Positions 1,221-7,141 of a DNA stretch of 64,000 nt are shown piece by piece. The DNA comes from Escherichia coli. GTDB lineage: Bacteria > Pseudomonadota > Gammaproteobacteria > Enterobacterales > Enterobacteriaceae. The notes under the pieces were generated by a model that was not told where the DNA came from, did not search any database, and saw nothing but the letters and a program-made list of their open reading frames with translations. Every line of letters starts with the position of its first letter. The stretch's first letter is position 1. The translations under genes were made by a program, and so were the position numbers. The stretch lies in NCBI RefSeq assembly GCF_016026235.1, contig NZ_CP065613.1; one strand, 5' to 3'.

Positions 1221-3602
1221 ATGGCAGATAATCCAGACCCTTCATCGCTCCTGCCGGACGTGTTTTCACCGGCGACCCGCGACTGGTTTCTTCGCGCCTT
1301 TAAACAGCCGACCGCTGTCCAGTCGCAAACCTGGCATGTGGCGGCGCGAAGCGAACATGCGCTGGTGATTGCACCGACCGGCTCCGGGAAAACGCTGGCA
1401 GCATTTCTCTACGCCCTCGATCGGCTCTTCCGCGAAGGCGGCGAAGATACCCGCGAGGCGCATAAGCGTAAAACCTCACGCATCCTCTATATTTCACCGA
1501 TAAAAGCCCTGGGCACCGACGTTCAGCGCAACTTGCAGATCCCGTTGAAGGGTATTGCCGATGAACGGCGGCGGCGCGGCGAAACGGAAGTCAATCTTCG
1601 CGTAGGGATCCGTACTGGCGATACGCCTGCACAGGAACGCAGCAAACTCACCCGTAATCCGCCGGATATTCTGATCACCACACCCGAATCACTCTATCTG
1701 ATGCTGACCTCCCGCGCGCGCGAAACGCTACGCGGCGTCGAAACGGTAATTATTGATGAAGTCCACGCGGTAGCGGGCAGTAAACGTGGTGCGCATCTGG
1801 CGTTAAGTCTGGAGCGGCTCGATGCGCTGCTCCACACCTCAGCACAGCGAATTGGCCTTTCTGCCACTGTGCGCTCAGCCAGCGATGTGGCAGCATTTCT
1901 TGGTGGCGATCGCCCGGTTACGGTAGTCAACCCGCCCGCAATGCGCCATCCGCAGATACGAATTGTCGTACCGGTCGCCAATATGGATGATGTCTCATCG
2001 GTCGCCAGCGGCACCGGCGAAGACAGCCATGCCGGCCGGGAAGGCTCCATCTGGCCATATATTGAAACGGGTATCCTTGATGAAGTGTTGCGCCATCGCT
2101 CGACCATTGTCTTTACTAATTCACGCGGGCTGGCGGAAAAACTGACGGCACGATTAAATGAGCTTTACGCCGCACGCTTACAGCGTTCCCCGTCTATCGC
2201 CGTTGATGCGGCCCATTTCGAGTCGACCTCCGGCGCAACCTCTAACCGTGTACAAAGTAGCGACGTTTTTATTGCCCGCTCACACCACGGCTCCGTCTCT
2301 AAAGAACAACGAGCAATCACCGAACAGGCGCTGAAATCGGGTGAATTACGCTGCGTGGTCGCAACCTCCAGTCTTGAACTGGGGATTGATATGGGCGCGG
2401 TGGATCTAGTGATTCAGGTGGCAACGCCGCTTTCTGTTGCCAGTGGGTTACAACGCATTGGTCGCGCCGGACATCAGGTTGGCGGTGTATCTAAAGGGCT
2501 GTTTTTCCCCCGTACCCGGCGTGATTTAGTCGATTCCGCAGTCATTGTAGAGTGTATGTTCGCAGGCAGGCTGGAAAACCTGACACCACCGCATAATCCT
2601 CTCGACGTCCTTGCGCAGCAAACCGTTGCCGCCGCGGCGATGGATGCATTACAGGTAGACGAATGGTACTCCCGCGTACGCCGTGCCGCACCGTGGAAAG
2701 ATCTGCCAAGACGTGTTTTTGACGCCACGCTGGATATGCTTTCCGGGCGCTATCCCTCTGGCGATTTTTCTGCTTTTCGCCCCAAACTGGTCTGGAACAG
2801 GGAGACCGGGATATTGACCGCCCGACCTGGCGCTCAATTGTTGGCGGTTACCAGCGGCGGCACCATTCCGGATCGTGGCATGTATAGCGTGTTATTACCC
2901 GAAGGTGAAGAAAAGGCCGGTTCGCGGCGGGTGGGTGAACTGGATGAGGAGATGGTATATGAGTCGCGGGTGAACGACATTATCACTCTCGGCGCTACCT
3001 CATGGCGGATCCAGCAAATCACCCGCGATCAGGTGATTGTGACTCCTGCTCCGGGTCGTTCTGCCCGGCTCCCCTTCTGGCGTGGTGAAGGTAACGGACG
3101 TCCGGCTGAATTAGGCGAGATGATCGGCGATTTTCTTCATTTACTGGCGGATGGCGCGTTCTTTTCCGGGACTATTCCCCCGTGGCTGGCAGAAGAAAAT
3201 ACGAACGCCAATATTCAGGGGTTGATTGACGAGCAACGCAACGCGACGGGCATCGTTCCGGGGAGTCGCCATCTGGTCCTCGAACGGTGCCGTGATGAAA
3301 TTGGCGACTGGCGTATTATTTTGCACTCTCCCTATGGAAGACGGGTGCATGAACCCTGGGCGCTGGCGATTGCCGGGCGAATACATGCCCTATGGGGCGC
3401 TGACGCGTCTGTGGTCGCCAGTGATGACGGCATTGTTGCGCGCATTCCTGACACTGATGGTAAATTGCCCGACGCCGCGATTTTTTTGTTTGAACCAGAA
3501 AAGTTGCTGCAAATTGTCCGCGAGGCGGTAGGCAGCTCGGCACTTTTCGCCGCCCGTTTTCGCGAATGCGCCGCGCGGGCATTATTAATGCCGGGGCGCA
3601 CT
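1221..3602 (+). pseudogene. lhr: Lhr large ATP-dependent helicase, 5' portion (~794 codons) interrupted by IS insertion
   Basis: Translation shows helicase motifs (GSGKT, DEVH, QRIGRAGH); reading frame runs without a stop into the IS terminal repeat at ~3603. Confidence 0.9.
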
Positions 3603-4897: not shown

Positions 4898-7141
4898 GGG
4901 CGCACTCCGGGCCATCGCACCCCGCTTTGGCAACAACGGCTGCGCGCCAGTCAGTTGCTGGAAATCGCTCAGGGATATCCGGATTTTCCGGTCATTCTCG
5001 AAACCCTACGCGAATGTCTGCAAGATGTTTATGATCTTCCCGCACTGGAACGTTTGATGCGTCGCCTGAACGGTGGCGAAATTCAAATATCCGATGTAAC
5101 GACCACTACGCCCTCGCCTTTCGCCACAAGTTTATTGTTCGGCTATGTCGCGGAATTTATGTACCAGAGCGACGCCCCGCTGGCAGAGCGCCGGGCATCC
5201 GTACTGTCGCTGGACAGCGAGTTACTGCGCAATCTACTCGGACAGGTCGATCCGGGGGAATTACTCGACCCGCAGGTCATTCGCCAGGTGGAAGAAGAGT
5301 TGCAACGACTGGCTCCTGGCAGAAGAGCGAAAGGTGAAGAAGGATTGTTCGACCTGCTGCGCGAACTGGGGCCAATGACCGTTGAAGACCTGGCGCAACG
5401 GCATACAGGCAGCAGTGAAGAGATTGCGTCGTATCTGGAAAATCTTCTTACAGTAAAACGAATCTTCCCGGCGATGATTAGCGGACAGGAGCGTCTTGCC
5501 TGTATGGATGATGCCGCCAGGCTGCGCGATGCCCTCGGCGTACAACTACCAGAGTCTCTGCCAGAGATTTATTTGCATAGAGTCAGTTACCCGCTTCGCG
5601 ACCTCTTTCTGCGCTATCTCCGGGCTCATGCTCTGGTCACGGCTGAACAACTGGCTCATGAGTTTAGTCTCGGTATTGCCATTGTCGAAGAGCAGCTTCA
5701 GCAACTGCGTGAACAGGGTCTGGTGATGAATCTGCAACAAGACATCTGGGTGAGCGATGAAGTATTTCGTCGTCTGCGTTTGCGCTCGCTGCAAGCCGCC
5801 AGAGAAGCGACGCGTCCCGTTGCAGCCACGACCTATGCGCGATTGCTGCTGGAACGTCAGGGCGTATTACCCGCCACCGATGGTAGCCCGGCGCTCTTTG
5901 CCTCAACATCGCCAGGCGTTTATGAGGGCGTAGATGGCGTGATGCGGGTGATCGAACAGCTTGCCGGAGTCGGTTTACCCGCCTCACTCTGGGAAAGCCA
6001 GATCCTGCCTGCCCGCGTACGCGACTATTCGTCAGAAATGCTCGATGAATTACTGGCAACCGGTGCAGTTATCTGGTCGGGGCAAAAAAAACTGGGTGAA
6101 GATGACGGCCTGGTGGCACTGCATCTACAAGAATATGCTGCAGAATCGTTCACTCCCGCCGAAGCGGATCAGGCGAATCGTTCGGCGCTGCAACAAGCGA
6201 TAGTCGCTGTTCTGGCTGACGGAGGAGCCTGGTTTGCACAACAAATCAGCCAACGGATACGCGACAAAATCGGCGAATCGGTTGATCTCTCTGCCCTGCA
6301 AGAGGCGTTATGGGCGCTGGTCTGGCAAGGCGTCATCACCAGCGACATTTGGGCACCGTTACGCGCCCTCACCCGCAGCAGTTCCAACGCACGCACCTCA
6401 ACTCGCCGCAGTCACTGGGCTCGTCGTGGACGTCCTGTCTATGCGCAACCCGTCTCGCCGCGGGTATCTTACAACACACCAAATCTGGCTGGACGCTGGT
6501 CGTTATTGCAGGTGGAGCCACTAAACGATACCGAAAGGATGCTGGCGCTGGCGGAAAATATGCTCGACCGCTACGGCATCATCAGTCGTCAGGCGGTGAT
6601 AGCCGAAAATATCCCTGGCGGGTTTCCATCGATGCAAACGCTTTGTCGAAGTATGGAAGATTCCGGGCGAATTATGCGAGGTCGTTTTGTAGAAGGTCTG
6701 GGTGGCGCGCAATTCGCTGAACGTCTGACTATTGACCGCTTGCGCGACCTGGCGACACAAGCCGCGCAAACGCGCCACTATACACCAGTGGCGCTCTCCG
6801 CCAACGATCCGGCTAATGTGTGGGGAAATCTTCTGCCCTGGCCTGCACATCCGGCAACGCTGGTACCAACGCGTCGGGCGGGTGCGCTGGTGGTCGTTTC
6901 TGGCGGCAAATTGTTACTCTATCTGGCGCAAGGTGGCAAAAAAATGCTGGTCTGGCAGGAAAAAGAGGAATTACTCGCCCCAGAGGTTTTCCAAGCGCTG
7001 ACTACCGCACTGCGTCGCGAACCACGGCTGCGCTTTACGCTAACAGAAGTGAATGATCTACCGGTCCGGCAAACGCCGATGTTTACGCTGCTGCGTGAAG
7101 CGGGATTTTCAAGTTCGCCACAAGGGCTGGATTGGGGATAG
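4898..7141 (+). pseudogene. lhr: Lhr helicase, 3' portion (C-terminal domain) separated from 5' portion by the IS
   Basis: Frame continuing directly from the target-site duplication (GRTPGHRTPLWQQRLRA...) to stop at 7139-7141; the two lhr parts minus the duplication sum to ~1538 codons. Confidence 0.88.

What the first reader, a model, noticed from the sequence alone, without database searches (positions are those of the whole stretch)
1221..7141. IS insertion splits Lhr into a helicase-core::transposase fusion ORF and an orphaned C-terminal domain
The lhr frame runs without a stop from codon 1 through the IS terminal repeat into the transposase frame, giving a 1060-codon chimeric ORF (1221-4403) that contains all N-terminal helicase motifs. 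The ~750-codon C-terminal part (4898-7141) has no obvious promoter or RBS of its own.
Basis: inference. Interest (0 to 1): 0.35.

Follow-up and report, generated by a model that had tools for sequence, protein, structure and literature searches.

The report
lhr helicase gene broken by ISEc60
A 1.3-kb mobile element (ISEc60) has jumped into the non-essential E. coli DNA-repair helicase gene lhr, in the same direction and reading frame, so the front of lhr reads on into the element's own (now also broken) transposase gene; this is an ordinary insertion pseudogene.

Summary
ORF 1221-4403 (1060 codons) runs from lhr codon 1 through the left end of an insertion sequence into its transposase frame, and 4898-7141 holds the rest of lhr.

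The element is ISEc60, an IS4-family relative of IS10. It spans 3604-4898 (1295 bp) and has a 9-bp target duplication, GGCGCACTC.

- The break falls after Lhr residue 795 of 1538. That is inside the helicase Core (published as 1-877), in its fourth domain, not at the Core/C-terminal-domain boundary.
- The chimeric ORF stops at 4403 only because this ISEc60 copy has one substitution (A to T at 4401, Arg239 to TGA). The fusion therefore lacks the third catalytic residue (E289), and the copy cannot make its own transposase.
- The same junction occurs in other E. coli assemblies with an intact transposase, where it gives a 1218-aa chimera that already has GenBank and RefSeq accessions and is named "ATP-dependent helicase".

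The most likely reading is a loss-of-function lhr allele, with the fusion ORF as a by-product of insertion phase (about a 1-in-6 chance). Expression of either piece is untested. Interest is low.

The parts
481..1128 (+). rnt (RNase T), the gene immediately upstream of lhr on the same strand. Context only; it is intact.
   Evidence: ORF. Annotated as rnt in the collinear E. coli record. Pfam RNase_T.
1221..4403 (+). Chimeric ORF of 1060 codons plus TGA (about 117 kDa). It consists of Lhr 1-795, 27 residues read from the IS left end, and ISEc60 transposase residues 1-238.
   Evidence: Deposited as STL96090.1 'ATP-dependent helicase'.
1221..3603 (+). lhr 5' fragment, codons 1-795 (the last codon straddles the junction). 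It carries RecA1, RecA2, WH1 and the first roughly two-thirds of the Core C-domain. SF2 motifs: I at 1371-1394, II at 1749-1766, III within 1857-1871, VI at 2451-2474.
3595..3603 (.). Left copy of the 9-bp target-site duplication, GGCGCACTC. The register is ambiguous by 1 nt.
3604..4898 (+). ISEc60 (IS4 family, IS10-related), 1295 bp, in the same orientation as lhr.
   Evidence: 1294 of 1295 nt identical to annotated ISEc60 copies. The ends were defined against an independent copy.
3604..3623 (+). Left terminal inverted repeat, CTGAGGAATCCCCAGAAAAC.
3628..3693 (+). Predicted RNA hairpin in read-through transcripts. It pairs 3628-3655 with 3670-3693 and buries the transposase Shine-Dalgarno sequence (AAGGAG, 3672-3677) and the ATG (3687-3689).
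   Evidence: Inverted repeats I9 and I10. Fold of 3604-3720: -38 kcal/mol, z = -5.8, 0 of 200 shuffles as stable.
3687..4403 (+). Transposase gene, codons 1-238 plus a premature TGA. It contains D97 (3966-3983 region) and D160 (4155-4175 region).
4401..4401 (+). Nonsense substitution. T here versus A in intact ISEc60 (AGA Arg239 to TGA). It is the only difference from the reference copy.
4404..4877 (+). Remainder of the transposase gene in the same frame (listed as ORF 4440-4877 from a GTG). It includes the IS4 signature Y282-x2-R-x3-E289-x6-K296 at 4530-4574.
4838..4867 (+). Weak sigma-70-like match (TCTACA-18-GATAAT, 9 of 12) pointing out of the IS right end towards the lhr 3' fragment. It is not above chance.
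   Evidence: 5 sites found against 2.2 +/- 1.6 expected.
4878..4898 (-). Right terminal inverted repeat (2 mismatches to the left one over 20 nt).
4899..4907 (.). Right copy of the 9-bp target-site duplication, GGCGCACTC.
4899..7141 (+). lhr 3' fragment. It encodes residues 792/796-1538: the last 82 residues of Lhr-Core plus the whole CTD (WH2-WH4 domains). The catalytic Asp1536 codon GAT at 7130 is intact. The frame is open from 4823, and the first candidate start is TTG at 4955 (Lhr L811) without a Shine-Dalgarno sequence.
   Evidence: Deposited as STL96099.1.

Best explanation
This is an insertion pseudogene. One copy of ISEc60 (IS4 family) transposed into the E. coli lhr gene between codons 795 and 796 and duplicated 9 bp of target.

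The element landed in the lhr orientation, in the one phase where its left end has no stop codon. The lhr frame therefore continues into the transposase frame. That copy later acquired a nonsense mutation at transposase codon 239, which now ends the chimeric ORF and makes the copy unable to supply its own transposase.

Predicted consequences (inferred):
- Transcription of lhr from its upstream signals (promoter not examined here), followed by translation from the lhr start, would yield at most a 117-kDa chimera. It carries the SF2 motor but has a truncated Core C-domain, no tetramerising or uracil-glycosylase CTD, and no transposase activity.
- The 3' fragment has no start codon with a ribosome-binding site. 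It lies downstream of about 0.5 kb of untranslated RNA, so it is probably silent.

Net effect: a null or severely crippled lhr allele. This is tolerated because lhr is non-essential. It causes no polar damage, because the next gene (grxD) is convergent.
For: **Shown by sequence and tools**
- IS identity, inverted repeats and 9-bp duplication.
- Both lhr halves abut exactly on intact Lhr at residues 795 and 796, with 792-795 duplicated and no other lesions.
- The break lies inside DEAD_assoc and inside Lhr-Core 1-877.
- A single A-to-T change creates TGA at 4401. E289 and the YREK motif lie downstream of it.
- Only one of three frames is open through the IS left end.
- There is no start codon with a Shine-Dalgarno sequence for the 3' fragment, and only a chance-level promoter match.
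- grxD is convergent.
- The same junction is found in independent assemblies, so it is not an assembly artefact.

**From the literature**
- The Core C-domain is required for ATPase activity: Msm Lhr-(1-562) is inactive (PMC5758891).
- The CTD nucleates the oligomer (PMC8053096).
- The CTD carries the uracil-glycosylase activity, with catalytic D1536. Delta-lhr cells are viable, with only AZT and H2O2 sensitivity (PMC10953399).
Against: - No expression data exist for this strain.
- The N-terminal fragment corresponds to Msm Lhr 1-774, a truncation that nobody has assayed, so residual ATPase or translocase activity cannot be excluded.
- Both lhr fragments are still free of stops and frameshifts in the two strains compared. 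This fits a recent insertion, but it would equally fit continued selection.
- The isolated CTD (876-1538) is a weak stand-alone glycosylase in vitro, so low-level internal initiation could give some activity.
Confidence: 0.85

Rival explanations
1. Hypomorph. The Lhr(1-795)::linker::Tnp(1-238) chimera is made, is stable, and keeps useful ATPase, translocase or helicase activity, so the strain retains part of Lhr function.
For: - The upstream region and lhr start are intact, and the frame is continuous.
- All SF2 motifs, the WH1 domain and the first part of the Core C-domain (the part that holds Trp620) are present (for Trp620).
- Translating ribosomes arriving from lhr would melt the hairpin that otherwise blocks transposase initiation (inference).
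- R777A in the mycobacterial enzyme caused only modest defects.
Against: - 82 conserved residues of the Core C-domain are replaced by unrelated sequence.
- That module is needed for ATPase activity in MsmLhr.
- No truncation at this point has been shown to fold.
- Large chimeras with a partial domain are typically unstable (general knowledge).
Confidence: 0.09
2. Split enzyme. The 3' fragment is expressed on its own, from an outward promoter at the IS right end or from read-through, with internal initiation at TTG 4955 or ATG 5057/5159. It acts as a free, oligomeric uracil-DNA glycosylase.
For: - The CTD is complete, with D1536 intact.
- The isolated CTD has glycosylase activity in vitro.
- There is a 9-of-12 promoter-like site at 4838-4867. 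IS10 is reported to have an outward promoter, pIII, near one terminus (Simons et al. 1983, listed).
- The fragment is also free of stops in a second strain.
Against: - The promoter match is at chance level.
- No candidate start before residue 926 has better than a 3-of-6 Shine-Dalgarno match.
- The isolated CTD binds DNA poorly and is far less active than the full-length protein.
- Untranslated RNA downstream of the TGA at 4403 would be prone to Rho termination (inference).
Confidence: 0.05
3. Assembly or sequencing artefact. The IS was mis-joined into lhr, or the TGA at 4401 is a base-calling error.
For: IS copies are classic sites of mis-assembly. The nonsense change is a single base seen so far only in this assembly.
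Against: - A perfect 9-bp target duplication flanks the element.
- The identical junction occurs in at least three other deposits: STE76059.1; MDS1492578.1 and L004; and WP_250392674.1.
- The TGA itself cannot be checked without the reads. If it is an error, the ORF would be 1218 codons rather than 1060, and nothing else would change.
Confidence: 0.01

Closest known systems
ISEc60 (IS4 family; NCBIfam NF033591 transpos_IS4_2), as annotated by PGAP in E. coli CFSAN029787, FDAARGOS_943 and others
   Same: 1294 of 1295 nt identical. Same terminal inverted repeats, same 9-bp duplication length, and same 396-codon transposase frame.
   Different: This copy has Arg239 changed to a stop (4401), so it is non-autonomous. 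It sits inside lhr, a site not occupied in any of 5426 complete E. coli genomes searched.
IS10 / Tn10 (IS10A and ISVsa5 family transposases) and its protection against external transcription by sequestering the transposase start in RNA structure (Davis, Simons & Kleckner 1985, as cited in PMC13181058)
   Same: - The transposase is 36% identical over 93% of its length (E = 4e-64).
- Ends of the CTGAG..ATCCCC type and a 9-bp duplication.
- D97/D160/E289 resemble IS10 D97/D161/E292 (IS10 numbering from my memory).
- In read-through RNA, a strong predicted hairpin pairs IS-end-proximal sequence with the Shine-Dalgarno sequence and ATG.
   Different: - It is a different element, 1295 bp against 1329 bp (the IS10 length is from memory).
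- No Rfam RNA-OUT match.
- In ISEc60 the transposase frame is open right to the IS end, so in-frame host fusions are possible. From memory, IS10 has an in-frame stop just upstream of its ATG; I did not test this.
- The function of the hairpin was not tested here.
Escherichia coli Lhr (NF007284; 1538 aa; Lhr-Core 1-877 plus Lhr-CTD)
   Same: Joining the two fragments minus the IS and one duplication copy matches the 1538-aa protein. There are 5 substitutions in residues 1-795 and 9 in residues 792-1538 against strain E2863, and no frameshift or stop. The genomic context is the same: gloA-rnt-lhr, then convergent grxD.
   Different: It is interrupted after residue 795. Neither published functional unit is intact on the N-terminal side: the Core lacks 82 residues. 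The CTD piece has no start signal.
IS-disrupted pseudogenes with chimeric host::transposase ORFs (a generic, well-known outcome of IS insertion)
   Same: In-frame read-in from the host gene across the inverted repeat into the transposase gene. Annotation pipelines then call a long hybrid protein.
   Different: Nothing distinctive. The hybrid here is unusually long only because lhr is one of the longest E. coli genes.

Membership tests
ISEc60 / IS4-family insertion sequence | Near-identity to a catalogued ISEc60 copy over its full length | tested here: met
   1294 of 1295 nt identical to NZ_CP011416.1 298182-299476, whose CDS is annotated 'IS4-like element ISEc60 family transposase'.
ISEc60 / IS4-family insertion sequence | Imperfect terminal inverted repeats and a direct target duplication | tested here: met
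   Inverted repeats at 3604-3623 and 4878-4897 (18 of 20). 9-bp duplication GGCGCACTC. An independent copy has a 9-bp duplication, GGTTTCCCC.
ISEc60 / IS4-family insertion sequence | DDE transposase with the IS4 Y-(2)-R-(3)-E-(6)-K signature, scoring above the family cutoff | tested here: met
   - The intact relative scores 360.5 bits against a cutoff of 152 on NF033591.
- The window's N-terminal part alone scores 197 bits.
- YSRRMQIEQNFRDEK is present at 4530-4574.
Autonomous (self-mobilising) IS copy | Uninterrupted transposase reading frame | tested here: not met
   TGA at codon 239 (4401-4403) separates D97 and D160 from E289.
Lhr helicase (NF007284 / Pfam DEAD + Helicase_C + WH_Lhr + DEAD_assoc + WH2-4_Lhr) | Sequence membership of the coding material | tested here: met
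   The fragments score 1810 and 1535 bits against a cutoff of 1496. Together they carry all the Pfam Lhr domains.
Lhr helicase (functional gene) | One continuous 1538-codon frame | tested here: not met
   Interrupted by 1304 bp (IS plus duplication) after codon 795. The 3' part is in a different frame from the 5' part.
Lhr-Core, the minimal autonomous ATPase/translocase (EcoLhr 1-877, MsmLhr 1-856) | The complete fourth (C) domain on the same polypeptide as the RecA and WH modules | tested here: not met
   The N-terminal fragment ends at residue 795 (Msm 774). DEAD_assoc is split at profile position about 117-128 of 191.
Lhr-CTD stand-alone uracil-DNA glycosylase (residues 876-1538, Asp1536) | Coding sequence intact with the catalytic Asp | tested here: met
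   Residues 792-1538 are 99% identical to the reference. The GAT codon for D1536 is at 7130.
Lhr-CTD stand-alone uracil-DNA glycosylase (residues 876-1538, Asp1536) | Own promoter and translation start, so that it is actually made | tested here: inconclusive
   There is only a chance-level promoter match and no start codon with a Shine-Dalgarno sequence. Expression cannot be measured with these tools.
IS10-type fold-back inhibition of transposase translation from external transcripts | RNA structure, formed only in transcripts entering from outside, that buries the transposase Shine-Dalgarno sequence and AUG | tested here: inconclusive
   - The hairpin is strongly predicted (-38 kcal/mol, z = -5.8).
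- The native transcript start is unknown.
- Three relatives give no compensatory changes (alignment A1; my reading).
- The effect on translation is not testable here.

The most novel reading that the evidence does not exclude
Both products are made and do something. One is an Lhr(1-795)-transposase(1-238) chimera that still burns ATP on DNA and/or binds ISEc60 ends; it could act as a trans-dominant damper of ISEc60 transposition, in the way N-terminal transposase fragments can. The other is a separately initiated, free tetrameric CTD uracil-glycosylase. Together they would form a natural 'domain-split' Lhr maintained in a small E. coli lineage.
Probability: 0.04. Interest if true: 0.4.

Novelty: already known. 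Interest (0 to 1): 0.1.

Why it matters
It matters little biologically.
- It marks a small E. coli lineage as a natural lhr mutant. That could serve as a ready-made strain for testing the mild Lhr phenotypes (AZT and peroxide sensitivity).
- It incidentally poses the untested question of whether Lhr-Core tolerates loss of its last 82 residues.

Its practical relevance is to annotation.
- Each lhr fragment alone exceeds the NCBIfam equivalog cutoff, so both are named "ATP-dependent helicase".
- The 1218-aa helicase::transposase chimera has acquired a RefSeq WP_ accession and a UniRef cluster. This pollutes protein databases with a hybrid that is almost certainly a pseudogene product.

Tried and rejected
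- **Shigella origin.** I first guessed the window came from Shigella. The depositor's label is Escherichia coli (NCTC assembly GCA_900449985.1).
- **Junction in complete genomes.** I searched 5426 complete E. coli genomes for the junction and found none.
- **Junction in metagenomes.** I searched JGI metagenome contigs for a 36-nt junction string and got 0 hits.
- **Rfam scan of 3300-5300.** I was looking for an RNA-OUT-like antisense RNA. The only hit was a spurious lncRNA match at E = 0.97.
- **Promoter and terminator scan.** Nothing was above shuffle expectation.
- **Is the open frame upstream of the transposase ATG conserved, and so possibly functional?**
  - It is also open in relatives of 85% and 82% identity (the 82% one was read by eye).
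  - Twenty-seven stop-free codons have about a 27% chance of occurring at random (my own estimate).
  - I found no compensatory changes in the hairpin.
  - I dropped this line.
- **Independent hot-spot insertion versus one ancestral event.**
  - The window and L004 differ at 40 of 4617 lhr positions.
  - They differ at only 1 of 1295 IS positions, and at none within about 390 bp on either side of the IS.
  - This favours one origin spread by recombination of a roughly 2-kb patch.
  - The SNPs are clustered and this stretch of lhr is widely conserved, so I leave the question open.
- **Tool glitch.** Loci L003 and L006 never appeared in /data for scripting. I used protein comparison and DNA alignment instead.
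Full report
**What is in the sequence**

The region lies in the standard E. coli arrangement gloA-rnt-lhr, followed by convergent grxD, mepH and sodB. The ORF listing returns a single 1060-codon ORF at 1221-4403 on the + strand. Further ORFs lie at 4440-4877 (145 aa) and 4955-7141 (728 aa).

G+C content drops from about 58% to about 43-49% between roughly 3600 and 4900, which marks foreign DNA there.

**The inserted element**

- A 32-nt imperfect inverted repeat brackets 3591-4910, and a 12-nt direct repeat sits at 3593-3604 and 4897-4908.
- Comparison with an independent copy of the same element fixes the ends as CTGAGG...CCCTCAGG. That places the element at window 3604-4898, 1295 bp long. 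It has a 9-bp target duplication: GGCGCACTC here and GGTTTCCCC in the other copy. The register is ambiguous by one base.
- Megablast against 5426 complete E. coli genomes finds full-length copies at 99.9% identity. They are annotated 'IS4-like element ISEc60 family transposase', and one genome has up to 39 copies.
- The intact transposase has 396 aa. It scores 360 bits on NCBIfam NF033591, against a cutoff of 152. It is 36% identical over 93% of its length to IS10A/ISVsa5 transposases.
- The terminal repeat occurs only at these two places in the 64-kb window.

**The transposase is itself broken**

Base-by-base comparison with an intact copy shows one difference in 1295 nt. T replaces A at window 4401, turning AGA (Arg239) into TGA.

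- ORF 4440-4877 is simply the rest of the transposase gene in the same frame.
- The candidate catalytic residues D97 and D160 lie upstream of the stop.
- E289, within the IS4 signature Y282-x2-R-x3-E-x6-K296, lies downstream. Pfam DDE_Tnp_1 is correspondingly split.
It is the reason the chimeric ORF has 1060 codons rather than 1218.

**Where lhr is cut**

- Against an intact 1538-aa Lhr, the chimeric ORF matches residues 1-795 (five substitutions) and then diverges.
- Translation of 4898-7138 matches residues 792-1538 at 99% identity, with no stop or frameshift.
- The insertion therefore lies between codons 795 and 796, with codons 792/793-795 duplicated.
- Pfam places the break inside DEAD_assoc: profile positions 1-128 of 191 are on the left and 117-191 on the right.
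- Published boundaries put EcoLhr-Core at 1-877 (PMC8053096) or 1-897 (PMC10953399). The CTD starts at 876 or 898.
- The alignment to PDB entries 5V9X and 7LHL is gap-free, with Eco residue = Msm residue + 21. The break therefore corresponds to Msm residue 774, inside structural domain 4 (530-856).
- The break sits three residues before Eco R798, which corresponds to Msm Arg777, the domain-4 residue that contacts the loading strand. R777A gave modest helicase and translocase defects.
- MsmLhr-(1-562) cannot hydrolyse ATP, so the 563-856 module is required. No construct ending near 774/795 has been reported in the papers I read.
- The labels 'helicase core' and 'orphaned C-terminal domain' are therefore approximate. 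The N-terminal piece lacks 82 Core residues, and the C-terminal piece carries them.

**Why the frames join**

Of the three frames through the first 83 nt of the IS, two contain stops. The third, the transposase frame extended upstream, is open to the very end of the element. The insertion happened in that phase, so the lhr frame continues. An in-frame read-in is expected for about 1 in 6 intragenic insertions, so it is not remarkable.

The left end also encodes a strong predicted hairpin (3628-3655 paired with 3670-3693; -38 kcal/mol, z = -5.8). It buries the transposase Shine-Dalgarno sequence and AUG in any transcript that enters from outside.

- This resembles the way IS10 sequesters its translation signals (Davis, Simons & Kleckner 1985, cited in PMC13181058).
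- In an in-frame fusion, ribosomes coming from lhr would unwind the hairpin. This is inference.

**The 3' fragment**

- The lhr frame is open from 4823, but it has no ATG, GTG or TTG before TTG at 4955 (Lhr L811).
- Neither that codon nor the next candidates (5054, 5057, 5135, 5159) has better than a 3-of-6 Shine-Dalgarno match.
- One 9-of-12 sigma-70-like site points outward at 4838-4867. However, the scan found 5 sites where shuffles give 2.2 +/- 1.6.
- The CTD coding sequence is complete, including the catalytic Asp1536 (codon at 7130).
- The isolated CTD is a weak glycosylase in vitro. Activity cannot be excluded if it were expressed, but nothing in the sequence suggests that it is.

**Distribution**

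- The exact 1060-aa sequence is deposited as STL96090.1 'ATP-dependent helicase [Escherichia coli]', from GCA_900449985.1.
- The same 90% cluster holds a 1218-aa protein (STE76059.1, MDS1492578.1, WP_250114725.1). It has the identical junction peptide and a full-length transposase. It also holds a contig-end fragment (WP_250392674.1) that carries the window's Lhr allele and the junction.
- In GCA_031665545.1 (locus L004) the insertion is at the same base with the same duplication.
- L004 differs from the window at 18 positions in the 5' lhr part and 22 in the 3' part. In the IS it differs only at the nonsense base, and there are no differences within about 390 bp of either IS end.
- This pattern fits one insertion event whose immediate neighbourhood has spread, or been retained, while outer lhr segments recombined. 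Independent hot-spot insertion is not excluded.
- No complete genome among the 5426 searched carries the junction, nor do JGI metagenome contigs. The allele is rare.

**Mechanism and verdict**

The best-supported reading (confidence 0.85) is an IS-inactivated lhr. At most it yields a 117-kDa chimera with a truncated Core, no oligomerisation or glycosylase domain, and a catalytically dead transposase stub. The 3' fragment is probably silent.

lhr is dispensable: the deletion gives only AZT and peroxide sensitivity. The next gene is convergent, so the insertion costs little.

Rivals are a hypomorphic chimera (0.09), a separately expressed CTD (0.05) and an artefact (0.01). They are laid out with their tests in the rival-explanations section.

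The kind of event is textbook, and both the element and the gene are catalogued. The hybrid protein already sits in GenBank, RefSeq and UniRef. I rate novelty as 'already known' and interest as 0.1.

Noticed in passing
window 1221-4403 and 4955-7141; P0006 (WP_250114725.1): Each lhr fragment alone exceeds the NCBIfam NF007284 equivalog cutoff: 1810 and 1535 bits against 1496. Both are therefore deposited as 'ATP-dependent helicase'. The 1218-aa helicase::transposase hybrid has its own RefSeq accession and a UniRef100 cluster (n=32). This is an annotation artefact that propagates a pseudogene product.
   Followed up: partly
window 3628-3693 (+): A strong predicted hairpin sequesters the ISEc60 transposase Shine-Dalgarno sequence and AUG in read-through RNA (z = -5.8). 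It is analogous to IS10 fold-back inhibition. By eye, a weak AAGACA-17-TCTAAT promoter-like site (3624-3652) could start the native mRNA inside the 5' arm. Neither point has been described for ISEc60 as far as I could find; only 2 papers mention the element.
   Followed up: partly
window 3206-5286 versus L004 5986-8066: A 2.1-kb stretch centred on the IS is identical between two E. coli strains except for the nonsense base. The rest of lhr differs by about 0.9%, in clustered patches (2324-2645, 5423-5575, 6739-6865). This suggests recombinational mosaicism around a shared insertion.
   Followed up: partly
L005 301-1595 (plasmid NZ_CP060062.1) and L006 301-1593 (NZ_CP171637.1); P0003-P0008: More distant ISEc60 relatives (82-85% nt identity) are annotated as frameshifted or as having internal stops. 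Truncated 234-aa 'IS4 family transposase' proteins of this group occur on more than 140 contigs. Decayed copies of this IS group seem common in E. coli.
   Followed up: no
P0002 (Logan assembly, 446 aa): Another lhr variant in the same protein cluster shifts frame right after ...GRTPGHRTP (residue 800), five codons from the ISEc60 insertion point. It is consistent with a 1-nt insertion. It could be a sequencing error or an independent lesion.
   Followed up: no
window 7200-32000: This stretch is collinear with ordinary E. coli chromosomes (the ydhQ-ydhV and pykF region). The best identity to any complete genome is only 99.2%, so the strain's lineage is not closely represented among 5426 complete genomes.
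   Followed up: no
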